From a virus (lineage: Duplodnaviria; Heunggongvirae; Uroviricota; Caudoviricetes): a stretch of 64,000 nt of DNA. Location: IMG/VR virus record IMGVR_UViG_3300032327_001521; one strand, given 5' to 3'. The notes beneath the pieces were generated by a model. That model ran no database searches and was not told the origin of the DNA. It saw only the letters and a list, made by a program, of their open reading frames with translations. Numbering within the stretch: the stretch's first letter is position 1; each line of letters opens with the position of its first letter. The translations under genes and the position numbers were made by a program. This document shows, in pieces, positions 35,872 to 63,465 of this stretch.

Positions 35872-36498
35872 TTAAAAATATTGCGCTAGGTTATCTTGCA
35901 TGTGTGGGTTGTTTGCTAACACTCGATCCTTAAGCATTCTACGAGCCTTTCGAATCTTGGTTTTAACCGTGTTTAGGTTCATTTGATATTTCTCAGCAAT
36001 TTCATTGCCCTTCATCAAATGAACCTCCTTATCAATTAGAATAGATTTTTCTAGACATTCTGGTAACTGTCGCATCTCAAGAGTTGTCATTGAATACAGA
36101 GAGTCCATGTAGATCTCACGCTCAAAGTTAGAAAGAGAAGTATCCTCGATTATTGGAGGAGTCAGCATATTATCAAGCCGTACTGCAAAATTGGTCTTTA
36201 GCTTATGCTTATGTAGCAATGATTCATTTTTTGCAATAGTATAGATCCAGGTAGTAAATCTAAACTTATCACTATATGACGCTAGCCCTTTAAATATTTT
36301 GAATAGGGTATTGTGCAAAACCTCATCCGTTTCATCTGGATCGTTAAAAAACTTCCAAATAAAATACTTAAGTTTTGGATACATGATTGTTGAAAGCCGA
36401 TTTCTATCCCTTTCTGTATATTCTCCACTCTTTATTTTCTCAGCGAGAGATTGCATCTCATCGTTGAGTTGGCGATTGACCGCGTCATATGAACTCAT
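35872..36498 (-). CDS. phage RNA polymerase sigma factor (sigma-70 region 2/4-like)
   Basis: FTTWIYTIAKNESLLH resembles region 2.2-2.4; C-terminal HTH MKGNEIAEKYQMNLNTVKTKIRKARRML resembles region 4. Confidence 0.55.
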   Translation of the reverse strand: MSSYDAVNRQLNDEMQSLAEKIKSGEYTERDRNRLSTIMYPKLKYFIWKFFNDPDETDEVLHNTLFKIFKGLASYSDKFRFTTWIYTIAKNESLLHKHKLKTNFAVRLDNMLTPPIIEDTSLSNFEREIYMDSLYSMTTLEMRQLPECLEKSILIDKEVHLMKGNEIAEKYQMNLNTVKTKIRKARRMLKDRVLANNPHMQDNLAQYF

Positions 36499-44864: not shown

Positions 44865-47168
44865 CTATACGAGACCAAGTACAGACTTCAGCTTATTGAT
44901 TACTGTCTCACTTGTGATAGTTTTGGAACACTCAAATTGGCGGTTTGTATCCTTGTGTATTGGACACCAGTTCCAGTCAGCTGGGTCAAGTCTATGAAAG
45001 TTAAAACAGCCTGAGCACTTACCAGCCGGCGCATTTATCCTAACAATATCCTGCATTTCATTATAGTCTTCAGTAAAACCTGATATCATTATGACGGGCG
45101 TAGTTGTTGCCCAGGCTAGCCAAGTAAGACCGCTACTGATTCCAACAAAAGCCTCAGCTGATTCAATCTCCTCAAGTGCTTTATCAATTGGCCCAGCTGG
45201 TAACTTTCTAGCGCCAGTTGGATACATGTTACCCATAAAACCGTTTGGTTCAGATGATACAATAACAGCTTCATAGCCATTGACATTACACCAATTGACA
45301 ACATCTTGCCAACCAGTTGGATTATTCCAGTACTTTGTTTGGCACGTGCCGTGTATTCCAATTGCAATCTTTTTTTGCTTGGCAACTTTAGGTAGAGTGA
45401 GAACCGGTTTAGTATCTTTGAAATCTAGTCCAAGTATATCAAATGCAGCCTTTTGCATTGGCTGAGTCTTAACCTCTTTTGGATTAAGAGTCTTGACTAT
45501 TTGATCGTTCTCATCATAATAAAATCCAATTGAATACATTGCCGTAAGGCTACCAACATTTGAACCAGGCTCAATAAACTCAATCTCTGGATAGTTGTCC
45601 TTAAACATGTGATTCCAAAAGGTTGAGCACATCATCCTGCACCCGTGCTTTTTACGAAACTCTTCGGCGGCTGGCATCCAGGCAAGAGTATCACCAAGCG
45701 ATTTAGACTCAACTGACACAAGCACATTGGCCCCAGCTAAATCAAGCTTTTCATCTAGTAAGACCTCATTTGTCTTTAGGTCAGTAACTCGATAGCCCCA
45801 ATCCACGTAATAGGCTCGATTTGTTCTGGCCCACATGTTATTGGTTATCTTTTGTGAAAAATCAATATTGCCGGTTGACCTGTCAATAAATTCAACCAAG
45901 AACTCTCCAGGTTCTTCCCGGATCACTTCAATGAATGCTCCTTTAACTGCATGATAGTTAATACTATCAGGTCTACGATTCGCCTGGTTCACATGCTTGA
46001 TGTGATCTTGCTTTTCCAGGAGACGTTCATTTGCAATCTCAGCAGCTCTCTCCCAACTAAACTCGGATCTGATCTTTTTAGATTCTTTCAAAGCCCGTTT
46101 CTTATGCAGTGGCCAGTTTTCATAAGCATCACGCATTACCTGTCTAAGGTCATCAAAATCAGGTTCATACCAATTACATGATTCCTCAAAGCCAGTTGCC
46201 TGAATTTCGCCTTTAACCTTAACTGGTAGGCCTCTACCCTCTGCAAATTCTAGCTGACCTGACACATTTGAATAGATTGATGGAGTTCCACAAGCCATTG
46301 CCTCAATTAGTGGCAAATTCCAGCCCTCTGACCTAGAACACGATAGGAAAACATCAATTGACCGGAGTAGATCAATATACTCTTGAGTAGGAGGTAGATG
46401 AATTATCTTAATACGTGGGTCCTCAAGCCCATAGTGAGCTAATCTTTCCTCTGTTGTTTGCATACCGTCTTTTGCAAAACGATTATCAACAGATAAGATT
46501 AGATCAATTGGCTCATCCTCTGAAAATTCGGCTAAGAAAGCCTCAATCATTTCAGTGGTTGCTTTACGTGGTTCCCATCTGCCGAAAATTGCAAATGTAA
46601 ATCGACCTGTGCCCGTTAATGGATGCCCGGCTTCACCTGGACAAAATACGGTACCGTCAACTCCTTCTGGCACAACTGCAATTCGATCAGCTGGATAACC
46701 TTGAGCAATAGTCATATCGCGTTGCCATTTGCTTGGAACCCATAGCTCATTTATCTCAAGTAACCGGTTAAAGAATTTAGCAGGTTGTCGAGTTGCTTCC
46801 CAAACATTATAGGCAATAGTGTATTTTGGATAGCCTTGATAAAAATAGGCATGACCTGTTTCACCAAGCACAATATTGACCTCTGCCTGGCCTGGATTTG
46901 GCCAATTTGTATAGATTGGAAAGTCCTTAAGCTGACCGTTGTCGGCCCATAGAGTCTGCTCAACCATCATGGTTTTCAGCTCATCTGTCATATAGGGTTC
47001 CTCATTATGAGGCTCATCTGACGGCTCTGTCCAGGTTGGGCCAATTGAAAAATTACGGACCTCAACTGGTCGTAATTTAGCTAGTTTAGTAAAAAATTGT
47101 TGGGCATGATTATTGAAACCGGTTGTGCCAATTAGCGGCACGTGGGCCTTTATCTTTAGGTCCTGCAT
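44865..47168 (-). CDS. two-domain glycosyltransferase (N-terminal GT4-like + C-terminal GT9/heptosyltransferase-like)
   Basis: GT4 motif EGWNLPLIEAMACGTPSIYSNVSGQLEF; C-terminal KKIAIGIHGTCQTKYWNNPTGWQDVVNW resembles GT9 acceptor-binding region. Confidence 0.7.
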   Translation of the reverse strand: MQDLKIKAHVPLIGTTGFNNHAQQFFTKLAKLRPVEVRNFSIGPTWTEPSDEPHNEEPYMTDELKTMMVEQTLWADNGQLKDFPIYTNWPNPGQAEVNIVLGETGHAYFYQGYPKYTIAYNVWEATRQPAKFFNRLLEINELWVPSKWQRDMTIAQGYPADRIAVVPEGVDGTVFCPGEAGHPLTGTGRFTFAIFGRWEPRKATTEMIEAFLAEFSEDEPIDLILSVDNRFAKDGMQTTEERLAHYGLEDPRIKIIHLPPTQEYIDLLRSIDVFLSCSRSEGWNLPLIEAMACGTPSIYSNVSGQLEFAEGRGLPVKVKGEIQATGFEESCNWYEPDFDDLRQVMRDAYENWPLHKKRALKESKKIRSEFSWERAAEIANERLLEKQDHIKHVNQANRRPDSINYHAVKGAFIEVIREEPGEFLVEFIDRSTGNIDFSQKITNNMWARTNRAYYVDWGYRVTDLKTNEVLLDEKLDLAGANVLVSVESKSLGDTLAWMPAAEEFRKKHGCRMMCSTFWNHMFKDNYPEIEFIEPGSNVGSLTAMYSIGFYYDENDQIVKTLNPKEVKTQPMQKAAFDILGLDFKDTKPVLTLPKVAKQKKIAIGIHGTCQTKYWNNPTGWQDVVNWCNVNGYEAVIVSSEPNGFMGNMYPTGARKLPAGPIDKALEEIESAEAFVGISSGLTWLAWATTTPVIMISGFTEDYNEMQDIVRINAPAGKCSGCFNFHRLDPADWNWCPIHKDTNRQFECSKTITSETVINKLKSVLGLV

Positions 47169-48363: not shown

Positions 48364-51195
48364 TTATTGGAATAGGCCATATGCTTGTAGATCATCAATG
48401 ACAGAATTTATTAAATTTTTAACAACTGTAACATCTGCGGCTAATTGACCCAATGAAGTTCTTGCATTTGCATCAATCGTTGCACCACCGGATGGAGCAG
48501 CATAAGTAGAATTTGAGTGTGTCTTAGTAGTAGTAGAATAGGTTTGGGTATACACACTTGCTCGCGTACCTCCAGCTAATCCAAAAAATCCTAATGTTCC
48601 CCCAGAAGTTCCTAATGTTAAATTTCCTCTAATAATAGTATTAACTGTACCATTAGTAGCTCCAATAGTAATTGCGGTTGTACTACCGTTTGCTCCTCCA
48701 GTACCTATATTTATAGTTTTAGTAAATGTACTTGCTGTAATTCCTGTTCCTATATTTATTTCACTAGCTGCTGTTTGAAGTGTAGCAAAGTTAATGGTTG
48801 GTGAATAAGAACACATGTGAATAGTATCAGTTACACCTATATGTGAAAATAAATGCCAACCTATTCTGTTATTAAAAGACGCTGCACCAAATCCAATTTC
48901 ATAACTTAAGGCTGGTGTTACTGGATAGTATGGAAAAGTTGTAGTTGATGCTCCACCGAAAACTGCGCCTATTTCAAAAGATATTCTAGCAGAAGAAAAG
49001 CCGTTGCTACCCATTAAACTAGCTCCACTTACATATGTACCAGTTGGAACAGTACCTGGTATTTTTACAACAACTGAATCTCCTATATTAGTTGTTGTAT
49101 AAGTTAAAGCAGAAACTCTTCCTGAGCCAACAAAATTAGAAGGAACAACAGTAGGAGATTGATTACCTCTACCGAAAACAACAATTTCAAAAACTGCAGG
49201 TATTACGCCGGCTGTTGCAATTGTAAATGTAATATCTATATCTGCTCCATTCTGCACAACGCTTGTTACTGTACCATAATTTCGGGCAGTGTTTCGTGCA
49301 ACGGCTAATACAACTTCATTATATGTACCAGAATTAGCAGTATAACTAGTAGAATTGATTCTAAAAAATGGATAACCTTTAGAGATACCCTGACCTGAAT
49401 CGAAATCTCCAGCGGCTCCAACTGCATAATTATAAAAATGATAACTTGAAAATGGAAATACACCGCCGAGGTATGATCCAGTAGTTGAAAACCAAATAGC
49501 TGGCGATCCACCGATGCCTCCTCCGGCGAGTCCGTTACTAGTAGAAACTCCTATTAAAGCATGAGCTCCAGCATTAGAGCTAAAATTAATTTTAGTTCCA
49601 AGAGAAACCGCACTACTAGCATTAAATATTGGAAAATAATCGGCAAAGGTAGGGTAAGTTGGAATTGCAAACGATAAAAAACTACCTCCAGCCATAGTAG
49701 CAGAAGGCACTGTTGTCGAACCTCCTCCTATTGTTAAGGTTGAACCTGCTGGACCACTTAGGGTTCCGGATATGGCTAATCCGCCAGTTATGCTAGAGCC
49801 GCTTCCGCTAAGTCTAAGTCGTTCAGCTGCTGCAGCCCCAGCTAATGAAGTCCTAAACACTAAATCAACCGTAGGATTTCCAACACTGGCACCATATGAA
49901 CTCAATACAGAGTCAATTGCCGAACCCGAAATACTAGTTGGTGTTGATCCTATTCCACTGATAAAATTTAAAGTAGTACCAGTTCCTACTGAGGAATATA
50001 ATGTCATAAGAGCATTACCTCCAGAATAAGTACCACTAGCTGTAGTTATAGCAGTTCCAGCTATTGCATTTGCATACGATGATGCTAAAAACAAGGTAGT
50101 TCCAGAAGAACCGTATACGTAATAATCAGTAGTTGTAGCCAATCCGGTAGTTCCAGTAATATTAGCTAACCTTACTAGAGTACCAGTAGGAGTAGTTGCG
50201 CTTGCAGTAAAGGTTAATTGAACAGATCCGCCAACGCCATTTACAATAGTCATACTGGAATAAGTTCTAGTTTGGCTATTATCGTATAGGTTTCTTATAT
50301 TTAATGCTGTGCCTAATGAATTTTGAGTAGTTGTTACAGACGATGACGTTATAGCACTGGTAAAAGTCTTAGCTCCAGCAATAGTTTGAATACCTTCTGT
50401 CATTACAAAGCTTGCAGCAGCACTTACATCTGGAATAGTATAAACCCTAGATGCGGCTGGTGCAGGAGAAGTTATTGTAATCGTATTAGTTGTACCAAGT
50501 ATAAGTTGGTTGGTTGTAGCAGAGACAGTTAATGTAGAACTAAAAGTCTTAGGTCCTGCAATTCCTTGAGTGCCTTGAGTCATTACAAAGCTTGCATCAG
50601 CATCTGTCACAGGAATGGTAAGAGTCCTGCTGGTTGTGAGAGTTGCTGTTCCCAAGATTATAGTAGAAGTGTGTGGGCTAGTTTGAGTAAAGGTGTCATC
50701 TATTGTGGTACCTGCAGCTGGGTAGAGTGCAATTGCGCGAACTGCTCCAGCATTCACTGCACCACTTCCAACTCCAGCAGGCCCTTGAGCACCACTTGTC
50801 CCACTTGAGCCAGAAGTACCTGAGCTACCTGATGTACCAGAACCAGACGTGCCTGAGCTACCTGATGTACCAGAACCAGACGTGCCTGAGCTACCAGATG
50901 TACCATCTGTTCCTGATGTACCTGAGCTACCGGATGTACCATCTGTTCCTGATGTACCTGAGCTACCTGAAGAACCTGCTATACCAGATGTACCTGAGCT
51001 GCCGGACGTACCGTTTGACCCAGAAGAACCTGACCCGCCAGTTCCTCCGCCAGTTGATGAAGTCCCAGAAGAGCCTGATGTACCTGAAGTATTGTCAAAG
51101 TTAGACTTCCATGCAAAACCATTCCAAATCCAGTCATTGCCTGCATACGAATAGGTTTGGCCGGACGTGGCTGGGTATGGGAATAGTATTGCCAT
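48364..51195 (-). CDS. tail fibre protein with collagen-like Gly-X-Y repeats
   Basis: N-terminal fibre module ...GQTYSYAGNDWIWNGFAWKS; about 120 aa of GSSGTSGTDG triplets; Thr/Ser/Gly-rich beta C-terminal region. Confidence 0.65.
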   Translation of the reverse strand: MAILFPYPATSGQTYSYAGNDWIWNGFAWKSNFDNTSGTSGSSGTSSTGGGTGGSGSSGSNGTSGSSGTSGIAGSSGSSGTSGTDGTSGSSGTSGTDGTSGSSGTSGSGTSGSSGTSGSGTSGSSGTSGSSGTSGAQGPAGVGSGAVNAGAVRAIALYPAAGTTIDDTFTQTSPHTSTIILGTATLTTSRTLTIPVTDADASFVMTQGTQGIAGPKTFSSTLTVSATTNQLILGTTNTITITSPAPAASRVYTIPDVSAAASFVMTEGIQTIAGAKTFTSAITSSSVTTTQNSLGTALNIRNLYDNSQTRTYSSMTIVNGVGGSVQLTFTASATTPTGTLVRLANITGTTGLATTTDYYVYGSSGTTLFLASSYANAIAGTAITTASGTYSGGNALMTLYSSVGTGTTLNFISGIGSTPTSISGSAIDSVLSSYGASVGNPTVDLVFRTSLAGAAAAERLRLSGSGSSITGGLAISGTLSGPAGSTLTIGGGSTTVPSATMAGGSFLSFAIPTYPTFADYFPIFNASSAVSLGTKINFSSNAGAHALIGVSTSNGLAGGGIGGSPAIWFSTTGSYLGGVFPFSSYHFYNYAVGAAGDFDSGQGISKGYPFFRINSTSYTANSGTYNEVVLAVARNTARNYGTVTSVVQNGADIDITFTIATAGVIPAVFEIVVFGRGNQSPTVVPSNFVGSGRVSALTYTTTNIGDSVVVKIPGTVPTGTYVSGASLMGSNGFSSARISFEIGAVFGGASTTTFPYYPVTPALSYEIGFGAASFNNRIGWHLFSHIGVTDTIHMCSYSPTINFATLQTAASEINIGTGITASTFTKTINIGTGGANGSTTAITIGATNGTVNTIIRGNLTLGTSGGTLGFFGLAGGTRASVYTQTYSTTTKTHSNSTYAAPSGGATIDANARTSLGQLAADVTVVKNLINSVIDDLQAYGLFQ
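50715..51087 (-). repeat. collagen-like (G-X-Y)n coding repeat in the 943-aa fibre gene
   Basis: 3-nt periodicity; mirrored P-E/D-V-P frame on plus strand (track ORF 50849..51154). Confidence 0.7.
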
Positions 51196-51245: not shown

Positions 51246-52031
51246 TTAAAAGTTATAGTTTAGGTAATCAAATGAATAGCTAAAGAATGTTCCAAACCTA
51301 TAATATGCTCTAATACAAACCGCTAAACTTCGTAATCCTGGAAGAGTAGCTGACATGGTTAGATCGGAGCCATTTACCGGAGCTGCCGCTTGTATGCCTG
51401 TCCTGGTTTCGTACGTAGGGAATGAGTCCTTACTTGTATTCCAAATAAAACCTGCCTCAGTAAATTCGCTAGTTAGTCCAGCCCCAGGCCCAGTAAAACC
51501 AAAACCAAATTCAACAGTTGCTACGATATCACTGTTTGATGGTGTTACACTACTCATAAATGACTGAGGTAAACCCCAAGGATATAGAGCTGAATACCCT
51601 ATTCCCTGCTCATTTTGTGCATATGCTCGATAATATGCAATCTCGCTAACACTAACACTAAGGTCTGGTATTGAAAATCCAGGTGAAACTGTTGGATCGC
51701 CTGTTCCAGCATAAGTACCATAAGAGTAGTGATCGGTTGGATATTCACTAATATGATTAGGATTTGAATCTATTGTTATATAAATACCCCAATCACTTAT
51801 ACCAGAGGCTCCTTGATTTAGCACAAGCCCTCCAAATGTTGCATTAAAGGTAGAGTTGTTTTGGACAATTGAGTTTAGCTGAACAGTTGGTAATATACCA
51901 GATGTTGTGGTTGTAGTAGTTGCAGCCCCGCCAACTGCTGCACCTGAGAACCTCCAAGCTGAGCCGTTCCAGGCCCAACCCTCGTAAATTTGACCCGTAT
52001 TTAAGCTCGTTGATGGAAAGTCAAGTGCCAT
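51246..52031 (-). CDS. tail fibre/receptor-binding protein sharing the N-terminal fibre module
   Basis: MALDFPSTSLNTGQIYEGWAWNGSAWRF parallels the N-termini of the 52059 and 48364 genes. Confidence 0.5.
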   Translation of the reverse strand: MALDFPSTSLNTGQIYEGWAWNGSAWRFSGAAVGGAATTTTTTSGILPTVQLNSIVQNNSTFNATFGGLVLNQGASGISDWGIYITIDSNPNHISEYPTDHYSYGTYAGTGDPTVSPGFSIPDLSVSVSEIAYYRAYAQNEQGIGYSALYPWGLPQSFMSSVTPSNSDIVATVEFGFGFTGPGAGLTSEFTEAGFIWNTSKDSFPTYETRTGIQAAAPVNGSDLTMSATLPGLRSLAVCIRAYYRFGTFFSYSFDYLNYNF

Positions 52032-52048: not shown

Positions 52049-52064
52049 GTCTATTTATTTAAGG
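52049..52064 (-). promoter_or_regulatory. late-promoter-like motif (minus CCTTAAATAAATAGAC) upstream of gene 51246..52031
   Basis: gtctatttatttaagg. Confidence 0.35.
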
Positions 52065-54416
52065 TCCAGTTGTTGTAGTGGTCGTAGTTGCACAGGCAGC
52101 TCCCCAATTAGGTTTAGGTAGGGTCCAGGCAGTCGCGCCTGTACTGAAATTTGAAGGCTGAGTAGGTATTAGCGAAACACACCAACCACTAAGGTCCTGA
52201 TTAAATATGGATGCTCCATTAAACATTGAAAGCATACTAATGACCTTTGCGGTGTTCCAAGTGGTAATTGCTGAGTTAAACGAGGTTGCACCTGAGAACA
52301 TTTGATTCATACCAATGACATTTGATGTATTCCAGCTATCGAGAGGCTGATTAAACGAGGTTGCATCACGGAACGTTGAATTCATAGCTGTGACACTGCT
52401 AGTATTCCAGCTATCGAGAGGCTGATTAAACGAGGTTGCACCTGAGAACGTAGCGCTCATACCAATGACATTTGATGTATTCCAGCTATTGAGAGGCTGA
52501 TTAAACGAGGTTGCACCTGAGAACATCTGATTCATGTTAGTGACATTTGCCGTATTCCAACTATTGAGAGGCTGATTAAACGAGGTTGCACCATAGAACA
52601 TTAAGCTCATATTACCGACATTAGCTACATTCCAACTACTGAGCGGCTGGTTAAATGCGGTTGCATTTTGAAATATTCTACTCATGTCTGTGATGCTTGC
52701 TGTGTTCCAGCCAGCAACTGACGAGTTAAACGAGGTTGCACCATAGAACATTGAGCCCATGGCTATTAGACCGGTAGTGGTCCAATTATTAAGCGGCTGG
52801 TTAAACGAGGTTGCATTGTAGAACATAGCTGCCATATTAGTGACTTTTATTACGTTCCAACCATTAAGAGCCTGATTAAAGGCTATTGCAGATTGGAACA
52901 GGTTAGCCATGCGTGTGACATTTGCTACGTTCCAGCTATTGAGCGGCTGGTTGAATGAGCCTGCATTTCGAAATACATTGCTCATATCTGTGATATTCGT
53001 TGTGTTCCAGTCAGCAACTGATGAGTTAAACGCGGTTGCACCATAGAACATTGAGTCCATGCTAGTGAGCGCAGTAGTGGTCCAATTATTAAGAGGCCGA
53101 TTAAAGGCTGATGCAAGTTGGAACATACTAGTCATACTACTGACATTTGAAACGTTCCAGCTATTAAGAGGCTGGTTAAATGAGGCTGCACCGTAGAACA
53201 TTGCGACCATATTAGTGACGTTTGCTACATTCCAGCTATTAAGAGGCTGGTTAAACGAGGTCGCGTTGTAGAACATTGAGCCCATATTAGTGACATTTGC
53301 TGTTCCAGTTCCACTGGTCCATGCAACGGATGAGTTAAATGAGGTTGCACCATAGAACATTTGGTACATGTATGTAACACTTGAAACGTTCCAGCTATCT
53401 AGCGGCTGGTTAAAAGAGGTTGCGCCATAGAACATTGAGCCCATGTTAATAACACTTACTGTATTCCAGCTATCTAGCGGCTGATTAAATGAGGTTGCAT
53501 TTTGAAATATGCTACTCATACTTGTAACGCCACTAGTATTCCAACCAGTAACAGATGAGTTAAATAAGGTTGCGCCTTGGAACATACTGCTCATATTAGT
53601 GACATTTGCTGTATTCCAGCTATCAAGAGGCTGGTTAAATGAGCTTGCACTATTAAACATTTGAGTCATGTTAGTGACATTTGCTACATTCCAGCTATTA
53701 AGAGGCTGATTAAACGCGGTTGCACTTGAGAACGTAGCGCTCATATTAGTGACATTTGCTGTATTCCAGCTATCAAGAGGCTGGTTAAATGAGCTCGCGG
53801 ATTCGAACATTTGAGTCATGTCAGTGACATTCGCTGTGTTCCAATTGCTAATATCATAATTAAAATATTGGGCTGATTGGAACATACTGGCCAAGCTGGT
53901 CACCTGACTTAGATTTGGAGTATTGGTTGCGGTGAATCCAGTTAGGTTACTTGCTCCAGCAAACATGGATTCCATTGAAAGCCAGCCGTCATACGACCAG
54001 TCCGTAACATCTGTTAAGTAAGGTGCAAGGTCTCCAGCTATAAAATGCGGAAATACTCCGGTAATTGCAATTGACCAACTTGGACTGTCTCCACCGGATA
54101 AATTAATTATGTGATCATCGGTTAAGCCGTATGCACTACCACTTTGACTAGGATCACCAATATTATACCAGGAAAGGTTGTAATCATATGGATATATTGG
54201 GACACCTTCCTTGGTTTTTTGAATTGATATAGTAACTTCATTTGGTGAATCGGTTAGTATAAATGTAAAACCGTTAGGTGGTGCTGTTGTAGTAGTAGTA
54301 GTATCTCCAGGCGCGCCTATTGCCTCGGTAAAAAAGTCCCAAGCAGATCCATTCCAGATCCAAGCTTCGTATATTTGGCCGACTGTTAGACCGGCTGATG
54401 GAAAATCTAATGGCAT
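52059..54416 (-). CDS. receptor-binding protein with DUF285-type (bacterial surface protein 26-residue) repeats
   Basis: more than 20 tandem copies of F-x-gA-tsFNQ-pL-xsWN-vsnVTnMxxMF; N-terminal fibre module MPLDFPSAGLTVGQIYEAWIWNGSAWDF; C-terminal TTTTTTTGP. Confidence 0.6.
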   Translation of the reverse strand: MPLDFPSAGLTVGQIYEAWIWNGSAWDFFTEAIGAPGDTTTTTTAPPNGFTFILTDSPNEVTISIQKTKEGVPIYPYDYNLSWYNIGDPSQSGSAYGLTDDHIINLSGGDSPSWSIAITGVFPHFIAGDLAPYLTDVTDWSYDGWLSMESMFAGASNLTGFTATNTPNLSQVTSLASMFQSAQYFNYDISNWNTANVTDMTQMFESASSFNQPLDSWNTANVTNMSATFSSATAFNQPLNSWNVANVTNMTQMFNSASSFNQPLDSWNTANVTNMSSMFQGATLFNSSVTGWNTSGVTSMSSIFQNATSFNQPLDSWNTVSVINMGSMFYGATSFNQPLDSWNVSSVTYMYQMFYGATSFNSSVAWTSGTGTANVTNMGSMFYNATSFNQPLNSWNVANVTNMVAMFYGAASFNQPLNSWNVSNVSSMTSMFQLASAFNRPLNNWTTTALTSMDSMFYGATAFNSSVADWNTTNITDMSNVFRNAGSFNQPLNSWNVANVTRMANLFQSAIAFNQALNGWNVIKVTNMAAMFYNATSFNQPLNNWTTTGLIAMGSMFYGATSFNSSVAGWNTASITDMSRIFQNATAFNQPLSSWNVANVGNMSLMFYGATSFNQPLNSWNTANVTNMNQMFSGATSFNQPLNSWNTSNVIGMSATFSGATSFNQPLDSWNTSSVTAMNSTFRDATSFNQPLDSWNTSNVIGMNQMFSGATSFNSAITTWNTAKVISMLSMFNGASIFNQDLSGWCVSLIPTQPSNFSTGATAWTLPKPNWGAACATTTTTTTGP
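52106..53966 (-). repeat. DUF285-like 26-28-residue solenoid repeats (coding)
   Basis: visible period of about 80 nt across 1.8 kb. Confidence 0.6.
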
Positions 54417-55186: not shown

Positions 55187-58100
55187 TTAAGGAAGTCGTG
55201 TCTCAAACCAACATCTAAGTTCTGTGTTTGTAAAGCCTGTAGAAAGACTAGCACACGGCCCAAATTCCGAATAGACTCCAAACTCGTAATTGAAAGGAAA
55301 TTTATCATGGGATATTGCAACAACTCTGCTTAGTGGGCCGGATATTAATTGACCCAATCCTCCATTTGCGCTTGGTGACCATGCCACATACCTAAATGCA
55401 ATATACATTGGAGCATAATTCCTAGAATATGGAAAGCGTCGAGTTGGTGGGCCGCTAGCTCCGCCTATACCAGGAACAAGCATGGTCTCGTTAATTGGTG
55501 CACCCGAAGTTGACCTATACTTCACTAAACGATTTGCAAATCTGCCATTAATGTATTGAGCTACGTCTATCACTTGATTAATTGCAGTAACCTCGTAATG
55601 ATTTGGTCTACTTACGCCAACTACATCATTAAAAATAGCGCGCTTGTGAGTTCCTCCACGCGTCCAACCGCCTGATGTTGATTGCCATGGAAAATATGGA
55701 CTACTATTTGGTGGTACGTCTCCACCTACAAAGTGAGGTGGAGATACTACATATCCCGCTCCACGACTATTCTGGCCTGCGGTGTAGCTAACTCGGCGAC
55801 GATAATACACCATTTCCACAAAAATTCGGTATTGAGAGAGCAGCTCAGTAGTTAAATCAACTGCTACAACGTATGGAGCTGATTTTAAATTAAATCCGCT
55901 ACCTGGAGAATTGGTTGCAGTATCCCAATCCTGTAGTGAAACTGCTCCGCTCGTACCATTGACCTGTTGATATACTGCTCGTAATTTTACGATTGGAACT
56001 GGCAAGACTATGCCTACTCCGCCTGTACCTGAACCGCCTGACGAGCCGCCTCCGCTTATCCCGGATATCTGTATCCAGAAGTTTGAGCCGCCGTCAGTAA
56101 CATATGCATACTCAAGACCGTCATCATAATTAAAGAGGCGATCTCCAATATTCACTGAGGTTGGAAAACCTGATTGTGTGTAATATGTATGTGAAGTGCC
56201 AGATGAACCGCTTGTTCCAGAAGAACCACTTGAACCTGCTACACCGGATGTACCTGACGTACCGCTTGAACCTGCTACACCGCTTGTTCCAGAAGAACCG
56301 CTTGTGCCTGAAGAGCCTGATCCAGATGTACCTGACGTACCGCTTGTGCCTGAAGAGCCTGAGCCCCCGGTCCCGGATGTACCGGCTACAACTGTCGTCC
56401 ACGTTAATGGATATTGACCACTGTCTATTGCATTGAGTGTAAGAACCTGACCTGCTGTGCCTGCTGTAGTAGGTAGCCGGTATACTACATTTGCAGCTAG
56501 TGTGCCAGGTGCAGTAAAACCTGTGTAATTAGTTGAGCCAGTTTCTAAGAGTCTGATCTCACCGCTTGTGCCTGAGGTTGGGCCGATCGAGACAACTCCA
56601 TGTAATCTAGAGTTAGTAGAACCGCTTGTGCCGAATATTGCAATTGGGCTCCCTGTACTGTCCTCAACCATTACTACATTTGTGCTCGCAACTCCCTGTA
56701 CCCGGAGCTGAGCTCCGATTCCAGAAGTCATTGCTGTGACGTATGCACCAATATTGACGGCTCCGCCAAAATGAGCCTTGTCCTTTTCAATATAGATTGA
56801 CCATGGCGCATTTGTGTAGGTTGAAGCAACCTTTACACTTCTTCCAAGTAGGTCAGGTGTATTTGCTGGATCAAGTTTTGATTCAATATAGATTGACGCA
56901 AAATTTGTAAAACCTAAACCAAAATCCCAAAATGGAACTCCATCAGGATAGACGGCTTTACGTATGTAAACATCGTATCCTGTTCCAACGGCCAAGCTTG
57001 CTCCAGCTGAAGCATAATAACCTAGGTTAAGTGTTTTGGTTGATTGATATGAACGTGCAACACCTCCACCAAGTATTTGAGTTTCATAATAATTAGTAGT
57101 TGCATCTGTACCGATTGCACCATTAAAGTCAGCAAAGTGGGCCTGTGCAATCAGGTACTGGGCTCGCTGTGGATCAATCTGTGTAGTTGTAAGTTCTCCA
57201 ATGATACCACTAGTTGATGAACTGCCGCCAGATACAATATGCCTCTTATGCTTAAGAACTGTAACTCCAGATGTTCCACCAGTACCGCCTGGTGTATAAT
57301 CAGTATATGTATCTGCAATTGGATTAACCGGTTGTGTTATATTTTCCGAAACATATGCAATTACATTAATTTGAGGAGTACTATGATTTATGTAGCCAAA
57401 ACCGGATGGTGTATACGGATCGTCATTTCTAACAATATCATAATAGTTTAATAGGCTAAGCTTGGTTGCGCTCTCTCCACTTGATCCAACTATTACGGCT
57501 CCGCTAGTTCCACTTGGAGCAAGTCGTAAATTAATAGAAGATGTGCCAGTTGAGTCAGTTGCAGTTAGCAGCACATCACTAGCTCCGCCTGACATCATCC
57601 AATAGTTATTGACACCAGATGTATTGCCGACTGTAATTGGTCCAACAAATCCTTTGGTTCCAGTAATATACTGGTCACCTTGAGTCATTACGAAATCGGC
57701 ATTTGCACCAGAATCAGGTACAGTATAGGTTTTGCCAACTGCATGAGTTGCTAATTGCACAATTGAGTTTCCACTGGATGTTCCAGCAAAAGTATCATCG
57801 AGTGAAGTTCCGCTTGTTTGATATATGGCAAGTCGACCACCAACACCAGATCCAATATTGACACTTAGACCGGAAGTACCAGATGTACCGGAAGTACCAG
57901 CTGAACCGCTTGTGCCTGAAGTTCCAGAGCTACCAGAAGACCCGCTTGTTCCAGACGTGCCAGAAGAACCGGATGAGCCGGTTGTCCCAGAGCTACCCGA
58001 AGACCCGCCTGTTCCAGACGTGCCAGAAGAACCGGATGAGCCAGTTGTCCCGGATGAACCTGATGTACCTGAGCTACCGGAAGAACCGCCAGTCCCTGAC

Positions 58101-61100
58101 GTACCAGAAGAACCTGAAGAGCCTGAACCAGAAGTTCCAGAGCTACCAGACGTCCCAGATGAACCTGATCCGCCTGTTCCTATTGAGCCAGTCTGTTTAG
58201 AGATAAGGCCTGCTCCATTTATGACAAGGTAATTGGTTAAACCAGATGTTGTTGATATCCCAGTTAAGGTTGCAGTATGCACAGTTAAGTCTCCAGCTCC
58301 AGTAATCTTACCTGAGGTACCGCCTGTACCATTTTGAAATTCAATGAGGCTATCTGAGTCTGCGCCGCTACCTTGACGAATTGAAATGGCCTTACGTGTT
58401 GCCTCAGTTATGATCTCTGGCTCAGTTGAGTTATCGTATGCTTGCTGTAGATTAGTGGTTGATATTCCGCCTACTGCACCGCTTATGAGCTCGCCAAATT
58501 TAGAGGCTCCGGTGAATCGTGCTTTGGCTGTATTAGTTAAGTCTGTTGCATCTTTGGTAACAGAAAGGACTCCGATAATTGTACCATTCTCTGCATTATT
58601 AGAATATTCAACAAATGTTTCAGTTGGTATTGCCGCAATTGCATCAGCAAGGTTTGAATACCAGGCCTGTCCGTATTGAATACGAATGAGACCGGTTGCG
58701 AATAGGTAGATTCGTTGATTTGTTGCTCGTCCGCCTCCACCTGGAATTGCGGTAACTGTTCCAGCTAGATCATAGTTAGCTTGATCGATTGTTGTTCTAT
58801 TACTAAAGACTCCGCCATTACGAGTTCTGTACTGGAAAGTTACAGGTGACTGCGCTCCAATTGAAACCGAATTTGGATTTAGCTCATTGACTGTAAAATT
58901 AATACCATTACCCCAAAGTGTTCCGTTTGTAGTATTAAAAGTCAAATTCGCAGCAACATTTGGATACGGTATGATCCCCTGATTAATAAGCTTAATTGGT
59001 GCCCAAATATCACGAATAGAGCTATATGGGCTCACATCAAAATCAACTGAATTGTTTACGTTCTGTATGGTAGTATTATTTGGATGGACTACTTTACCAA
59101 CATACAGAAATTCTCGACGCTGCTGAGGAGTTGGGAGAGTCGACTGTGTCGATACTGCACCGCTCGTTGAGAGTAGTATGTGAGTTGAATTACCTGAAAG
59201 GAGTGGTGCTACACCGGTCGTGCCTGCAAAAATAACATTTGTAACATCAGGTAGAGTAGCATAGGCTCCAGTATTCTTAACGATCCAGCCTTTAGCTGAG
59301 CCAATTGAGAATGACGTACTGCCTGCATCAATTGTTAGGCCTGAAAACTCGTAAACACCAGTTGATGTAACGTTACCCTCTAGAATATTACGCTCCTTTG
59401 AGGTTAGAGTTAAGTTAGCATCTTCGTTTTGAATTGAGACATGAATTGTACCTGATGTTGAGCCATTATCTGTTACATAACCAATTTGATTACTTCTAGA
59501 GTTAAATGGTAGACTCGTTGTACTCGCAACAAACGCACCAGCTGAGGTTGATGCATAGATAATATCGCCAATTGAGTAGGAGCTAAGATTTAGACCTGTT
59601 ATGATACCGCTGTTCGTGACAAAGCCCTCCTGCCCATTTAGGATATTAGCCGACACTAGCCCAACTACTTCATTATTACCAATATGAGCGCTTGTGGCCA
59701 AAGTAGCATTCGGTACAGCGCCAGTTGCACTCTGTAATTTAACAACTTGGCCCTTTAAGAGAGTTGAGCCAGACGCATTGTAGACCCTAATATATTGCTG
59801 TTGACCAGTTCTAACTACTACATCACTTGATGTGCTTGGATAGTAGGATATAGATTTGCTATTTGAGTCAAAGAAGGCTCTGCCTACTTTTGTTGTAACC
59901 GATCCACTTGTTGAGAAATCAATATTTTGAACTTCTTGAATATCCTTGTTATGTAGGACCAATGAGGTTCCATTAAATGTTAAATTGGCTTGGGCAACGG
60001 CTCCGCTAGAAGACCCGTCTGAGGTTAAGACACGATTTGCGCCAGGATCAGTAATATACAAGCTTGTTCCAGAAGAACCACTTGAGCCGTCTGTTCCTGA
60101 AGTACCAGAAGTTCCATCTGTTCCAGATGTACCACTTGATCCGGCTGTACCGGAAGTACCACTTGAACCATCTGTTCCAGAAGTACCATCTGTACCTGAG
60201 CTGCCTGAGGCTCCAGCTGTTCCAGAAGTACCAGAAGTCCCATCTGTGCCAGAAGTCCCAGAAGAACCATCTGTGCCAGAAGTTCCCGATGAACCGTCTG
60301 TACCTGAGCTGCCTGAGGCTCCGTCTGTTCCAGAAGTACCAGACGTACCGGCTGCAGCAATTAAAGTCCAAAAAGTTCCTTCAGTAGGAGTATTTCCAAC
60401 CGTTCCACCATTAGCATCTATTCTATACCAAGTTTCTCCTTCATACGTAACAATATCACCTACTGCATATGCGTCTCCTATACTATAGGGTCCTCTAAAA
60501 TTCCATAACGCATCTGTACCATCTGTACCTGATGTACCGCTTGAGCCGTCTGTACCGGAAGTCCCTGATGAACCCGAGCCTGAAGTGCCAGATGAACCGT
60601 CAGTACCGGAAGTTCCTGATGTTCCATCTGTACCAGATGTACCGCTTGAACCATCTGTTCCACTTGAACCGTCTGTTCCTGAAGTCCCTGATGAACCGTC
60701 TGTTCCAGAAGATCCGGAAGTTCCGTCTGTACCGGATGTCCCAGATGAACCGTCTGTTCCAGAAGAACCGGACGTACCGCTCGAACCATCAGTTCCGGAA
60801 GTTCCTGACGAGCCGTCTGTACCTGAACTACCGGATGTCCCATCTGTACCCGAAGTACCGCTTGACCCATCCGTTCCCGATGTTCCGTCTATTCCAGAAG
60901 TCCCAGATGAACCGTCTGTTCCAGAAGATCCGGAAGTTCCAGAGCTACCAGCAGTTCCGTCTGAACCTGCTGTACCTGCTGAGCCAGCTCCTCCAACAAA
61001 TTCAACTAGATCTCCATCTAGAATACCGTCACGATACCAATATTTGCTAGAAGTTCCATTAATGACTAGTCGAACATCCATTGACTGGAATCGAATAGCT

Positions 61101-62508: not shown

Positions 62509-63465
62509 CTATTGTCGTCTATCCTTTGCGTATAAGATTGCCTCAACGTACTTGGAGGATGCAGTTGCTGGGTCAATACTGGATAGATCAGCATCAAATG
62601 GGCTCTGGTTTATAAACTCGCCTTTATAGAAGAGCCGGCCGTCATTATTACCCGTTACTCCAGCATTGTGCATAATCTTGTGCTTGTCATAGTCAGCTAG
62701 ACTTGAAGTTCCCCAACTAAACTCTAGATCCCGGTGAAGTCTAGTTTGAGCACCTGATCTCCATGCACCCCATAGTACAGCCCACATATCTGCACACCAT
62801 TTTTGAATTGGATTATAGGACTTTGCAAGTTCAGCATCTAGCGAGGATCTCTCTGCTGCTTCCCTGGCTGCCATATACGAATAGAGATCAAGGGCACAGG
62901 TTTTTACATATTCCCAGTATTGAGCGGTTACACCCTTCATTAAATATTGGGCACCACCTGACACTGCCTGATTAGCCTCAACTGTACTTGGCTCAACCTT
63001 TGCAATATCGCACATATTTGTAAAAAGTGAGTCTGATTTGGACTTTATGTAGTCTGCACCAATGTAAGAAATCGTATCACTTAAGTACCAATAGTGATCA
63101 TCATACATTGAGCTAAAGTCAGGAAGTTCCCTAAAGATAATATCTGAATCATGATAGAAGATCACATCTCCCCTTAGCTCAGGATAGGCCCTAAAGTGCT
63201 GTTCTAGAATATCCGGCCTTAGGATTGGAATATATCCATTGTTTTGAGTGATCCGCTTTTTGTAAAAAAAGAATCTGACCTGTGGGTATTTACCTGCAAG
63301 ATGGATAACCTCAGCGGATGGAGCTCCGTCATGAGCCCATAAGACTTCAATCCAGTTTGGATTTATTCCAACCTTCATAAAGTTATGAATCATTACCTCA
63401 ACTTGCCAATGGAAATAGGGTACGTCGGGCTGAGCCGAAATGAATACGATCTTCTTTGTCAACAT
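62509..63465 (-). CDS. hypothetical protein, possible nucleotide-sugar transferase (weak DxD hint)
   Basis: 318 aa; FYHDSDIIF; function weak. Confidence 0.3.
   Translation of the reverse strand: MLTKKIVFISAQPDVPYFHWQVEVMIHNFMKVGINPNWIEVLWAHDGAPSAEVIHLAGKYPQVRFFFYKKRITQNNGYIPILRPDILEQHFRAYPELRGDVIFYHDSDIIFRELPDFSSMYDDHYWYLSDTISYIGADYIKSKSDSLFTNMCDIAKVEPSTVEANQAVSGGAQYLMKGVTAQYWEYVKTCALDLYSYMAAREAAERSSLDAELAKSYNPIQKWCADMWAVLWGAWRSGAQTRLHRDLEFSWGTSSLADYDKHKIMHNAGVTGNNDGRLFYKGEFINQSPFDADLSSIDPATASSKYVEAILYAKDRRQ

What the first reader, a model, noticed from the sequence alone, without database searches (positions are those of the whole stretch)
44865..47168. Several glycosyltransferases plus poly-Thr linkers in fibre proteins: candidate phage-directed glycosylation of virion proteins (or of DNA)
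A 767-aa protein fuses a GT4 domain (EGWNLPLIEAMACGTPSIY...) to a GT9/heptosyltransferase-like domain. A second GT-like ORF sits in the fibre locus (62509..63465). A third cluster (21750..24803) combines a GT-B-like protein, a flavodoxin-like protein and an FkbM methyltransferase; the last is a family that usually O-methylates sugars. In parallel, the fibre/RBP genes carry mucin-like linkers: ACATTTTTTTGP at the C-terminus of 52059..54416, and TTTTSTTTTTTTGP plus a second TTTTTTTGP in 63502..64000. These are classic O-glycosylation substrates. The parsimonious hypothesis is a phage-encoded tail-fibre O-glycosylation (and methylation) system. The alternative is sugar modification of hydroxymethylated DNA bases, given the ThyA paralog.
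Basis: inference. Interest (0 to 1): 0.65.

Follow-up and report, generated by a model that had tools for sequence, protein, structure and literature searches.

The report
Phage enzymes that sugar-coat tail fibres
This uncultured 169-kb phage has at least three sugar-adding enzymes in its tail and fibre genes, one related to the bacterial enzymes that coat adhesins with heptose, which suggests, without any direct test yet, that many aquatic phages glycosylate their own tail fibres.

Summary
The ORF 44865..47168 (-) is real. It encodes a 767-aa fusion of a GT4 glycosyltransferase with a full-length homologue of TibC/AAH, the bacterial autotransporter protein O-heptosyltransferases (PDB E 2.7e-53; it passes the curated NCBIfam TIGR04414 cut-off). 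The catalytic Asp, the phosphate and sugar contacts and the four iron-finger cysteines are conserved. Only the adenine-contacting Arg is lost.

The gene ends 10 nt before the tail-tube gene and lies beside the fibre genes. More than 500 viral contigs carry relatives, in at least two synteny contexts, always at the fibre/sheath-tube boundary.

Poly-Thr does not track this enzyme (6/82 loci). Collagen-like G-(S/T)-S fibres do (37/82, often adjacent).

Poly-Thr tracks the second enzyme, 62509..63465. That protein has a GT-A fold with an invariant DxD. In 70/80 related loci the ORF directly upstream carries poly-Thr tracts (background 6-7%).

A third ORF, 21750..22811, has a GT-B fold and lies near an FkbM methyltransferase.

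ThyA is a canonical thymidylate synthase, so the DNA-sugar alternative lacks its prerequisite here.

Verdict: virion-protein O-glycosylation is the best-supported reading. No glycan has been observed.

The parts
44865..47168 (-). 767-aa two-domain glycosyltransferase (GT4 + BAHT/TibC-like). This is the flagged ORF.
45984..47168 (-). N-terminal GT4 (GT-B, retaining-type) domain, residues about 1-395. The EX7E motif E281...E289 is invariant.
   Evidence: Pfam PF00534 43.5 bits and PF20706 33.9 bits; phrog_2170 over residues 15-377, E 1e-33; invariant columns
44880..45971 (-). C-terminal BAHT (TibC/AAH-like protein O-heptosyltransferase) domain, residues 400-763. It carries D493 (TibC D110), T608 and K612 (T226, K230), the Trp aligned with W305, and the Cys718/721/735/747 iron finger.
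   Evidence: PDB 4rap E 2.7e-53 with alignment; TIGR04414 266.7 bits, above the 200 cut-off; residue conservation in 121 homologues; residue roles from PMC4358343
44240..44854 (-). Tail-tube-like protein (204 aa). Its start codon lies 10 nt after the glycosyltransferase stop codon.
   Evidence: phrog_45 tail tube, E 4.4e-9; sequence; conserved at +1 in 13 related loci
42716..43465 (+). T4 gp15-like tail sheath stabiliser (context).
   Evidence: Pfam PF16724, E 3.8e-5; conserved in relatives
48364..51195 (-). 943-aa fibre protein with 24 collagen-like G-(T/S)-S triplets (residues 56-140) and a BppL_N motif. Candidate acceptor of the BAHT enzyme.
55187..61249 (-). 2020-aa fibre protein with 122 collagen-like triplets (GTS 43, GSS 41, GTD 23) in six blocks. 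Main candidate acceptor of the BAHT enzyme.
62509..63465 (-). 318-aa GT-A-fold glycosyltransferase (phrog_4417) with invariant H105-D106-x-D108. Candidate poly-Thr O-glycosyltransferase.
63502..64000 (-). C-terminal 165 aa of a 603-aa modular protein with five poly-Thr tracts. It lies immediately upstream (36 bp) of the GT-A gene. Candidate acceptor.
52059..54416 (-). 785-aa DUF285/PARCEL-repeat fibre protein with poly-Thr tracts at residues 39-44 and 777-783 (the C-terminal TTTTTTTGP).
51246..52031 (-). 261-aa protein with a TTTTTTS tract at residue 38.
21750..22811 (-). 353-aa GT-B-fold protein, acceptor unknown. It has no sequence-level family.
24003..24803 (-). FkbM-family methyltransferase (266 aa). 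The same domain is fused inside the GT4-TibC protein in many relatives.
   Evidence: Pfam PF05050 and TIGR01444 66.8 bits, above the 37.7 cut-off; fused variants

Best explanation
**What it is.** The flagged gene encodes a cytoplasmic, late-expressed enzyme of the tail module that O-glycosylates the phage's own virion proteins.

**Proposed mechanism.**
- The C-terminal domain is a TibC/AAH-type (BAHT) protein O-glycosyltransferase. It puts the first sugar on Ser/Thr hydroxyls of a long repetitive acceptor. The sugar is heptose or a related sugar; the nucleotide carrier is uncertain because the adenine-reading Arg is lost.
- The most likely acceptors are the G-(S/T)-S collagen-like stalks of the neighbouring fibres, 48364..51195 and 55187..61249. 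Together these hold about 146 triplets.
- The fused GT4 domain adds a second sugar. In many relatives a fused FkbM or class-I methyltransferase caps the glycan. Here an FkbM enzyme is encoded separately.
- A second, independent enzyme-substrate pair works in the same fibre locus. The GT-A enzyme 62509..63465 glycosylates the poly-Thr linkers of the modular protein encoded just upstream, and probably those of 51246..52031 and 52059..54416.

**Shown versus inferred.**
- Shown: domain identities, active-site conservation, gene positions and the co-occurrence statistics.
- Inferred: that any glycan is made, which protein receives it, the sugar, and the order of the two domains.
For: 1. **Family membership.** Residues 400-760 align end to end with TibC (4rap residues 21-386, E 2.7e-53). 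They pass the curated equivalog cut-off of TIGR04414 (266.7 bits against 200). Every characterised member of this family glycosylates proteins (PMC4358343).
2. **Active site.** The TibC residues shown by mutagenesis to be needed are conserved here: D110, K230, W305 and Cys339/342/358/370. So is T226. In 121 homologues D and W are 121/121, K is 119/121 and each Cys is 118/121.
3. **GT4 domain.** It is intact, with invariant E281 and E289.
4. **Position in the window.** The gene stops 10 nt before the tail-tube gene, with no minus-strand terminator between them. Fibre genes lie directly upstream.
5. **Position in relatives.** The placement recurs in relatives of 43-97% identity and in two different synteny contexts. 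One is fibres - GT - tube - gp15-like. The other is fibres - 2OG oxygenase/multi-GT - GT - 83 aa - sheath - tube.
6. **Link to collagen-like fibres.**
   - 37 of 82 loci carry a G-(S/T)-S collagen-like ORF within 10 kb (19 of 33 loci with at least 8 kb of upstream flank). In 17 of them it lies less than 100 bp from the GT gene.
   - Conversely, 120 IMG/VR stretches (1.08 Mb) picked only for coding GTS repeats contain a TibC-domain gene, or part of a GT4-TibC relative, in 8 cases. My rough expectation is far below 1.
   - Those 8 include at least four other architectures: a different GT4 + TibC, TibC alone, and a 1454-aa protein with an N-terminal FkbM-like region and a C-terminal TibC domain.
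7. **Multi-domain relatives.** 131 of the 150 best TibC-domain cluster representatives exceed 450 aa. That fits a glycan assembly line.
8. **Poly-Thr and the GT-A.**
   - 78 of 80 GT-A loci have a T5+ ORF, and in 70 of 80 it is the ORF immediately upstream (median gap 43 bp).
   - After 90% dereplication the figure is 56 of 63, spread over 8-30 homology clusters.
   - Background is 6 of 82 and 7 of 120.
9. **No DNA-modification route.** ThyA is canonical.
Against: - No glycan, mass shift or activity has been observed. Everything rests on homology and gene neighbourhood.
- The classical BAHT acceptor is absent. No autotransporter beta-helix with strand-loop-strand repeats turned up in the NCBIfam scan of the fibre proteins. 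A collagen-like chain is a structurally different substrate.
- R286 of TibC, which reads the adenine of ADP-heptose, is Ala here and mostly Val or Ile in the family.
- No ADP-heptose synthesis gene was found in the window. The donor is therefore unknown.
- 45 of 82 GT4-TibC loci show no GTS-type ORF within reach, including 9 of the 20 loci with at least 8 kb on both sides.
- Only 8 of 120 GTS stretches show a TibC-domain or related gene.
- The gene also adjoins the tube and sheath genes, so these could be the targets instead.
- Co-occurrence may partly reflect shared ancestry of aquatic myovirus tail modules.
Confidence: 0.55

Rival explanations
1. One reading: the GT4-TibC enzyme glycosylates the poly-Thr linkers of the fibre and receptor-binding proteins.
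For: Poly-Thr tracts are present in four ORFs of the same fibre locus. In the closest clade, 5 of about 13 loci have a T5/T6 ORF near the GT. My recollection is that AIDA-I carries some Thr-linked heptose.
Against: Only 6 of 82 GT4-TibC loci have any T5+ ORF within 10 kb. That equals the background of 7 of 120. Poly-Thr ORFs sit directly upstream of a different enzyme, the GT-A, in 70 of 80 loci.
Confidence: 0.12
2. The enzyme glycosylates other virion proteins, such as the tail tube, sheath or capsid, as in mycobacteriophages. The collagen-like fibres are not the target.
For: The gene directly precedes the tail-tube gene here. In the second lineage it directly precedes an 83-aa ORF, the sheath and the tube. 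Mycobacteriophage glycans sit on capsid and tail-tube C-termini (Freeman 2023, as cited in PMC12619734).
Against: The tube protein is not notably Ser/Thr-rich (18%). TibC-domain genes of other architectures are found beside GTS-collagen ORFs in stretches chosen only for the repeat.
Confidence: 0.15
3. The enzymes act on host molecules (LPS, capsule or surface proteins). The purpose would be to block superinfection or remodel the cell. This is the usual reading of glycosyltransferases found in phage 'host recognition clusters'.
For: The literature on pelagimyophages and cyanophages reads fibre-cluster glycosyltransferases this way (PMC7029224; PMC12801897). GT4 enzymes commonly build polysaccharides.
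Against: BAHT enzymes act on proteins, not lipid-linked glycans. The tight and lineage-independent adjacency of each enzyme to a particular kind of repetitive phage protein is not expected for host-surface remodelling. The position next to the tube gene suggests late expression, which suits virion assembly.
Confidence: 0.1
4. The sugars go onto DNA, that is onto hydroxymethylated or hydroxylated pyrimidines, as in T-even phages or RB69.
Confidence: 0.04
5. The protein is a counter-defence enzyme that glycosylates a host defence protein or a signalling molecule.
For: Pfam PF20706 'GT4 in conflict systems' matches residues 187-377 (33.9 bits, cut-off 26).
Against: That hit overlaps the generic GT4 hits and scores lower. 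The conserved position in the structural module and the TibC fusion argue otherwise. PADLOC was not searched.
Confidence: 0.04

Closest known systems
Bacterial autotransporter heptosyltransferases (BAHT): TibC, AAH/AAH2 of E. coli (TIGR04414; PDB 4rap, 4rb4)
   Same: - The catalytic domain is homologous over its full length, including the N-terminal beta-barrel region.
- The catalytic Asp, the Thr/Lys phosphate contacts, the sugar-contacting Trp and the four-Cys iron finger are all present.
- The position that sets stereoselectivity is Ser, as in AAH.
- The presumed acceptor is also a long, repetitive, Ser-rich extracellular fibre.
   Different: - It is encoded by a phage and fused to a GT4 domain. 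Relatives add methyltransferase or further GT domains.
- No autotransporter or strand-loop-strand repeat protein lies nearby.
- The adenine-contacting Arg is lost.
- Dodecamer formation and the donor sugar are untested.
Mycobacteriophage virion glycosylation (Freeman et al. 2023, Cell Host Microbe; known to me only through citations in PMC12619734 and PMC12801897)
   Same: Phage-encoded glycosyltransferases sit next to structural genes and modify virion proteins post-translationally in the cytoplasm.
   Different: The enzyme families differ, with no BAHT domain reported there. The targets there are capsid and tail-tube C-termini of siphoviruses of Actinobacteria. Here the candidates are collagen-like and poly-Thr regions of fibres in large aquatic myovirus-like phages.
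Chlorovirus PBCV-1 A064R (from my own knowledge, not checked here): a three-domain viral protein with two rhamnosyltransferases and a methyltransferase that builds the capsid glycan
   Same: A virus-encoded, multi-domain, cytoplasmic 'GT + GT (+ methyltransferase)' enzyme builds a glycan on a virion protein. The GT4-FkbM-TibC relatives have the same logic.
   Different: The folds, linkage (N-linked there) and host (eukaryotic alga) are unrelated.
BclA of Bacillus anthracis and other glycosylated bacterial collagen-like proteins (from my own knowledge)
   Same: Collagen-like G-X-Thr repeats of a surface filament are multiply O-glycosylated, and the glycan carries methylated sugars.
   Different: Different enzymes are used. 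BclA repeats are mostly GPT, whereas here they are GTS, GSS or GTD without proline.
GT8/GT24-type retaining GT-A enzymes (LgtC, glycogenin, UGGT catalytic domain, XXYLT1), and mucin-type GalNAc transferases as a functional analogue (the last from my own knowledge)
   Same: For ORF 62509..63465: a GT-A fold with DxD. The proposed action on Thr-rich, mucin-like linkers resembles mucin-type O-glycosylation.
   Different: No sequence-level membership in any Pfam or NCBIfam GT family. TM-scores are only 0.41-0.48.

Membership tests
BAHT (TibC/AAH protein O-heptosyltransferase, TIGR04414) | Scores above the curated family cut-off over the full model length | tested here: met
   266.7 bits against a cut-off of 200, model positions 9-374 of 374; PDB TibC E 2.7e-53
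BAHT (TibC/AAH protein O-heptosyltransferase, TIGR04414) | Catalytic base Asp110 | tested here: met
   D493 aligns with D110; Asp in 121 of 121 homologues; role from PMC4358343
BAHT (TibC/AAH protein O-heptosyltransferase, TIGR04414) | Beta-phosphate contacts Thr226 and Lys230, and heptose O4 contact Trp305 | tested here: met
   T608 and K612, and Trp conserved in 121 of 121
BAHT (TibC/AAH protein O-heptosyltransferase, TIGR04414) | Arg286 hydrogen bond to adenine N1, the basis of ADP-sugar specificity | tested here: not met
   Ala in the window protein; V 51, I 44, R 17, A 6 in the family
BAHT (TibC/AAH protein O-heptosyltransferase, TIGR04414) | Four-Cys iron finger (Cys339, 342, 358, 370) | tested here: met
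   C718, C721, C735, C747; each Cys in 118 of 121 homologues
BAHT (TibC/AAH protein O-heptosyltransferase, TIGR04414) | Beta-hairpin thumb (Phe265/Val266) and ring-shaped dodecamer | tested here: inconclusive
   HMMER aligns NGFMGN with QGFVWN next to a 3-residue deletion. MAFFT puts gaps at these columns. The oligomeric state cannot be tested with these tools.
BAHT (TibC/AAH protein O-heptosyltransferase, TIGR04414) | The acceptor is an autotransporter passenger with strand-loop-strand repeats, usually encoded next to the enzyme | tested here: not met
   No autotransporter or target-repeat family hit in the eight neighbouring fibre and tube proteins at E <= 0.1. The neighbours are phage fibres.
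BAHT (TibC/AAH protein O-heptosyltransferase, TIGR04414) | Transfers heptose from ADP-heptose | not testable with these tools
   No heptose-pathway genes were seen in the window. The host is unknown.
GT4 (retaining GT-B, Pfam Glycos_transf_1) | Passes the Pfam gathering cut-off and has the EX7E motif | tested here: met
   PF00534 43.5 bits against 26.4; E281 and E289 invariant in 26 sequences
GT-A glycosyltransferase (GT8/GT24-like), for ORF 62509..63465 | GT-A fold | tested here: met
   AF2 pLDDT 94.5. The best Foldseek PDB hits listed are all GT-A enzymes; best E 2.9e-7, prob 1.0, TM 0.41-0.48.
GT-A glycosyltransferase (GT8/GT24-like), for ORF 62509..63465 | DxD metal and nucleotide-sugar motif | tested here: met
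   H105, D106 and D108 invariant in 37 sequences
GT-A glycosyltransferase (GT8/GT24-like), for ORF 62509..63465 | Sequence-level membership in a curated GT family | tested here: not met
   No Pfam, NCBIfam or PDB sequence hit; only phrog_4417 'unknown function'
T-even / RB69-type DNA glycosylation | ThyA homologue with N177D, L143D/E or D169N that makes 5hm-dCMP or 5ho-dCMP | tested here: not met
   L185, C188, D238 and N246 equal E. coli L143, C146, D169 and N177. Passes the thymidylate-synthase equivalog cut-offs. Criteria from PMC13326640. Only the 64-kb window was examined.
T-even / RB69-type DNA glycosylation | Glycosyltransferase specifically similar to DNA alpha- or beta-glucosyltransferase | tested here: inconclusive
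Phage virion glycosylation system | Glycan covalently attached to virion proteins | not testable with these tools
   Needs glycoprotein staining or mass spectrometry

The most novel reading that the evidence does not exclude
Large aquatic phages run two dedicated, substrate-matched O-glycosylation systems on their tail fibres. One is a ring-forming BAHT-type enzyme, fused to glycan-extending and methylating domains, that hyperglycosylates G-(S/T)-S collagen-like stalks. The other is a separate GT-A enzyme that turns poly-Thr linkers into mucin-like segments. Each system occurs in more than 500 viral contigs. If this is right, glycan-coated fibres would be a common and so far overlooked feature of environmental phages, with consequences for host recognition, stability and stickiness.
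Probability: 0.35. Interest if true: 0.8.

Novelty: new variant of a known kind. Interest (0 to 1): 0.68.

Why it matters
**State of knowledge.** As far as I know, and from the papers read here, glycosylation of tailed-phage virions has been shown experimentally only for mycobacteriophages. Glycosyltransferases in the fibre clusters of marine phages are routinely read as host-LPS or DNA modifiers.

**What this adds.** A protein-specific enzyme family (BAHT) is found fused into multi-domain glycan-building proteins in the tail modules of hundreds of uncultured phages. A second enzyme family is almost always paired with poly-Thr proteins. Together these give two concrete enzyme-substrate pairs that can be tested at once.

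**Consequences if confirmed.**
- Many 'auxiliary metabolic' glycosyltransferases would become virion-maturation enzymes.
- The odd Ser/Thr-only collagen-like repeats and poly-Thr linkers of phage fibres would have an explanation.
- The BAHT family would extend beyond autotransporter virulence factors.
- New tools for site-directed protein O-glycosylation would become available.

**Experimental entry point.** Microcystis phage Mel-JY01 is cultured and carries the same arrangement.

Tried and rejected
- **Close relatives by DNA.** Megablast of the ORF and of 20 kb of the window against 50,697 phage records found nothing, so no close cultured relative exists. The terminase is nearest to huge phages, Sphingomonas phage PAU and Lak phages at 32-37% identity.
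- **Poly-Thr as partner of the GT4-TibC gene.** Rejected: 6 of 82 loci.
- **Canonical BAHT target repeats in the fibre proteins.** None found.
- **ADP-heptose pathway genes in the window.** None among the called genes.
  - The Mel-JY01 'cytidylyltransferase-like' 639-aa protein gives only a marginal Pfam hit (21.1 bits against a cut-off of 21) and no NCBIfam hit.
  - It is therefore not evidence for HldE.
- **A shared late-promoter motif upstream of the gene (AAAGTATAAT).** Not enriched: 13 matches against 10.3 expected.
- **Promoter and terminator scans.** They gave fewer sites than shuffled sequence.
- **Sequence searches for the 'flavodoxin-like' 253-aa and the 128-aa ORFs.** Nothing usable.
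- **Pfam on the modules between poly-Thr tracts.** No family, apart from one Gly_rich_2 hit.
- **Literature.** Searches for Mel-JY01, for phage-encoded TibC/BAHT, for O-heptosyltransferase with phage, for glycosylated tail fibres and for poly-threonine in phages found no relevant paper. Freeman 2023 itself is not held in the library.
- **Moraphages.** I could not establish whether this phage belongs to the 'moraphages' of PMC12619734.


Full report
**1.

ORF 44865..47168 on the minus strand is a clean 767-codon frame and contains the quoted GT4 signature.
- Pfam places a Glycos_transf_1 domain at residues 189-309 (43.5 bits, cut-off 26.4). It gives only sub-threshold hits to GT9 (residues 591-700) and to the TibC N-terminal domain (residues 400-461).
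- A search of PDB sequences settles the C-terminal half. Residues 400-760 align without large gaps to residues 21-386 of TibC of enterotoxigenic E. coli (4rap, E 2.7e-53).
- The NCBIfam equivalog model for 'autotransporter strand-loop-strand O-heptosyltransferase' (TIGR04414) scores 266.7 bits against a curated cut-off of 200.

**2. The other candidate enzymes**

- ORF 62509..63465 (318 aa) has no Pfam, NCBIfam or PDB sequence hit. Its only match is to phrog_4417, 'unknown function'.
  - With an alignment of 37 homologues, AlphaFold2 gives a confident model (pLDDT 94.5).
  - All the best Foldseek PDB matches are GT-A glycosyltransferases: the UGGT catalytic domain, LgtC, XXYLT1 and glycogenin. 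The best E-value is 2.9e-7 and TM-scores are 0.41-0.48.
  - H105-D106-x-D108 is invariant.
- ORF 24003..24803 is an FkbM methyltransferase.
- The 'flavodoxin-like' claim could not be checked beyond negative sequence searches.

**3. The BAHT domain looks catalytically competent**

The TibC structure paper names these residues (PMC4358343):
- Asp110 as the catalytic base;
- Thr226 and Lys230 on the beta-phosphate;
- Trp305 on heptose O4;
- Arg286 on adenine N1;
- Pro300 (Ser294 in AAH) as the stereoselectivity switch;
- Cys339, 342, 358 and 370 as an iron finger needed for the dodecamer and for activity.

In the window protein these positions are D493, T608, K612, a conserved Trp, Ala, Ser, and C718, C721, C735 and C747. 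In 121 homologues:
- Asp and Trp are invariant;
- Lys is present in 119 and each Cys in 118;
- the Arg position is mostly Val or Ile.

The chemistry and the architecture are therefore kept, but the nucleotide part of the donor may differ. The GT4 domain keeps its two invariant glutamates, E281 and E289.

**4. Genomic setting**

The window is part of a 169,379-bp metagenomic scaffold. The phage has a T4-type terminase most like those of huge phages and Sphingomonas phage PAU, and there is no close cultured relative.
- The glycosyltransferase gene ends 10 nt before a tail-tube-like gene (phrog_45, E 4.4e-9). No minus-strand terminator lies between them.
- A gp15-like gene follows on the opposite strand.
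- Upstream lie three small ORFs and then the fibre genes. These are a 943-aa and a 2020-aa protein with collagen-like repeats, a DUF285/PARCEL-repeat protein, the GT-A gene and the poly-Thr protein.

**5. The family is large and viral**

- The big protein collection holds more than 2000 homologues of the fusion. Many are 750-790 aa long. Others are 985-1330 aa, with an FkbM or class-I methyltransferase domain as well.
- The best cultured example is Microcystis phage Mel-JY01, at 45% identity. Its 1226-aa protein is annotated only as 'methyltransferase FkbM'.
- IMG/VR has at least 546 viral stretches that encode a relative.
- An exhaustive HMMER search with the BAHT domain alone finds 1402 cluster representatives. 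131 of the best 150 are longer than 450 aa, that is multi-domain, and lengths reach 2033 aa.

**6. Where the gene sits in other phages**

I called and clustered ORFs in 82 loci.
- About 13 loci, at 50% identity or more, share the window's order: fibres, GT, tube, gp15-like, baseplate-like, terminase.
- About 50 loci, at 43-46% identity, belong to a different myovirus lineage. There the gene is followed by an 83-aa ORF, the tail sheath (Pfam Phage_sheath_1) and the tube. It is preceded by fibres, a 2OG-Fe(II) oxygenase and a 791-aa GT4+GT25 protein.

In both contexts the gene marks the boundary between the fibre genes and the sheath/tube genes. This is hard to reconcile with a DNA-modifying role.

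**7. Which protein is the acceptor?**

Only 6 of 82 loci have an ORF with five or more consecutive Thr. By contrast:
- 50 of 82 loci have a collagen-like (GXY)n ORF. In 37 the repeat is the unusual G-(S/T)-S kind seen in the window.
- In 17 of those 37, the repeat ORF lies less than 100 bp from the GT gene.
- The window's two fibres carry 24 and 122 such triplets.

As a converse test I scanned IMG/VR for DNA coding GTSGSSGTSGSSGTS.
Eight of them contain a TibC-domain gene or part of a GT4-TibC relative.
- I could not measure the background directly. With a few thousand such genes in my rough estimate of about 6e10 bases, the expectation is well below one.
- Among the eight are architectures unlike the window's: a different GT4 + TibC (695-696 aa), TibC alone (403 aa), and a 1454-aa protein with an N-terminal FkbM-like region and a C-terminal TibC domain.

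The link is therefore between the BAHT domain and this kind of fibre, across architectures. It is not universal, however:
- 9 of the 20 loci with at least 8 kb on both sides lack a GTS-type ORF;
- some loci have GPQ-type collagens instead;
- the classical BAHT target repeat is absent from the fibre proteins.

**8. Poly-Thr belongs to the other enzyme**

The GT-A family of ORF 62509..63465 is very large (3351 homologues) and occurs in at least 579 IMG/VR stretches.
- In 78 of 80 fetched loci an ORF with T5+ tracts is present.
- In 70 of 80 that ORF is the one immediately upstream on the same strand (median gap 43 bp). The window has the same arrangement, with a 36-bp gap.
- After removing near-identical copies the figure is 56 of 63. 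These upstream proteins fall into 8 (loose) to 30 (strict) homology clusters and range from 135 to 1839 aa.
- They are built of modules of about 70-90 aa joined by Thr tracts, with up to 31 tracts in one protein.
- Background for a T5+ ORF in comparable viral DNA is 6 of 82 and 7 of 120.

This is the strongest single association found.

**9. The DNA alternative**

- The ThyA homologue (5312..6451) passes two thymidylate-synthase equivalog cut-offs and is 52% identical to E. coli ThyA.
- It keeps L143, C146, D169 and N177. A 2026 study uses these positions to tell dTMP synthases from 5hm-dCMP and 5ho-dCMP synthases (PMC13326640).
- No hydroxymethylase was seen in the window.
- The GT-B ORF resembles T4 DNA glucosyltransferases no more than it resembles ordinary GT4 enzymes.
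- A DNA role for that one ORF cannot be excluded, because 105 kb of the genome lie outside the window.

**10. Proposed mechanism, and what is inferred**

- Shown: the domain identities, the conserved active sites, the tail-module position in two lineages, and the two co-occurrence patterns.
- Inferred:
  - During late infection the BAHT domain, perhaps as a TibC-like ring, adds a first sugar to Ser/Thr along the unfolded or assembling collagen-like stalks.
  - The GT4 domain extends it, and an FkbM enzyme may methylate it.
  - The GT-A enzyme coats the poly-Thr linkers.
- Unknown: the donor sugars, the order of action, and whether tube or sheath proteins are also targets.

**11. Comparison with what is known, and novelty**

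- The domain is a member of the BAHT family by curated score and by nearly all catalytic and structural residues. It fails two family features, the adenine-reading Arg and an autotransporter acceptor.
- It is best described as a BAHT-family enzyme recruited to a new kind of acceptor.
- Functionally the closest precedents are mycobacteriophage virion glycosylation, chlorovirus A064R and glycosylated collagen-like BclA. The last two are from my own knowledge.
- Automated pipelines already name these proteins 'autotransporter ... O-heptosyltransferase'. I found no paper discussing a phage-encoded BAHT, a glycosylated collagen-like phage fibre or the GT-A/poly-Thr pairing.
- Published genomics reads fibre-cluster glycosyltransferases as LPS or DNA modifiers.
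- I rate this a new variant of a known kind. Interest is moderately high because it is directly testable, for example in the cultured phage Mel-JY01. No glycan has been observed, so it remains unproven.

Noticed in passing
L001 (Microcystis phage Mel-JY01, PP395634.1) 635..3052 (+) versus the annotated CDS 739..2298 (-): The GenBank record annotates a minus-strand 'hypothetical protein' made of PEVP repeats. The plus strand carries an 805-aa ORF with a globular N-terminus, a long GTS/GSS collagen-like region and a globular C-terminus. The plus-strand fibre is the more plausible gene, so the record looks mis-annotated. The 1226-aa GT4-methyltransferase-TibC protein next to it is annotated only as 'methyltransferase FkbM'.
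   Followed up: partly
L018-L084 (second lineage), ORFs 1-5 genes upstream of the GT4-TibC gene; for example L083 694..3066 and 3074..3670: A 791-aa protein with GT4 and GT25 Pfam hits lies next to a separate 199-aa 2OG-Fe(II) oxygenase, close to collagen-like fibres. This recalls the collagen lysyl-hydroxylase and galactosyltransferase enzymes of animals and mimivirus. It hints at hydroxylation-dependent glycosylation of GPQ/GPK-type collagen-like phage fibres.
   Followed up: partly
window 5312..6451 (-): The thymidylate synthase is 379 aa against 264 aa in E. coli. It has large insertions and a longer C-terminal region, yet keeps all catalytic and specificity residues.
   Followed up: partly
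window 18471..18725 (-), from L004 20004..20258: A phage-encoded ribosomal protein S21 homologue (precomputed Pfam PF01165) sits next to a NUDIX hydrolase (18002..18532).
   Followed up: no
window 16274..17395 (+): A YheC/D-type ATP-grasp enzyme (Pfam 185 bits), which also hits 'sugar-transfer associated ATP-grasp'. Just beyond the window end, the fibre locus contains an Amidoligase_2-like gene (weak precomputed hit). Both suggest further peptide-ligase-type modifications in this phage.
   Followed up: no
window 2776..3522, 7714..8517, 10395..11396, 13108..14424 (all -): An unusually full DNA-repair set for a phage: a PD-(D/E)XK nuclease, Fpg/Nei glycosylase, UvdE UV-endonuclease and an ATP-dependent DNA ligase.
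   Followed up: no
window 52059..54416 (-): A fibre-locus protein made almost entirely of DUF285/PARCEL repeats (Pfam 777 bits, 7 stretches). This repeat is known from Mycoplasma and Listeria surface lipoproteins. Here it is capped at both ends by poly-Thr tracts.
   Followed up: no
window 492..1283 (-), 1531..1923 (-), 35872..36498 (-), 36508..37227 (-): SPFH/Band-7, HSP20, a sigma-70 region-2 protein and PhoH homologues. The terminase - PhoH - sigma order is conserved in relatives.
   Followed up: no
L206-L285, ORF directly upstream of the GT-A gene; window 63502..64000: The modules between the Thr tracts are about 70-90 aa long, often begin or end with Cys, and match no Pfam family. They may be a new family of small binding domains strung on mucin-like linkers.
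   Followed up: partly
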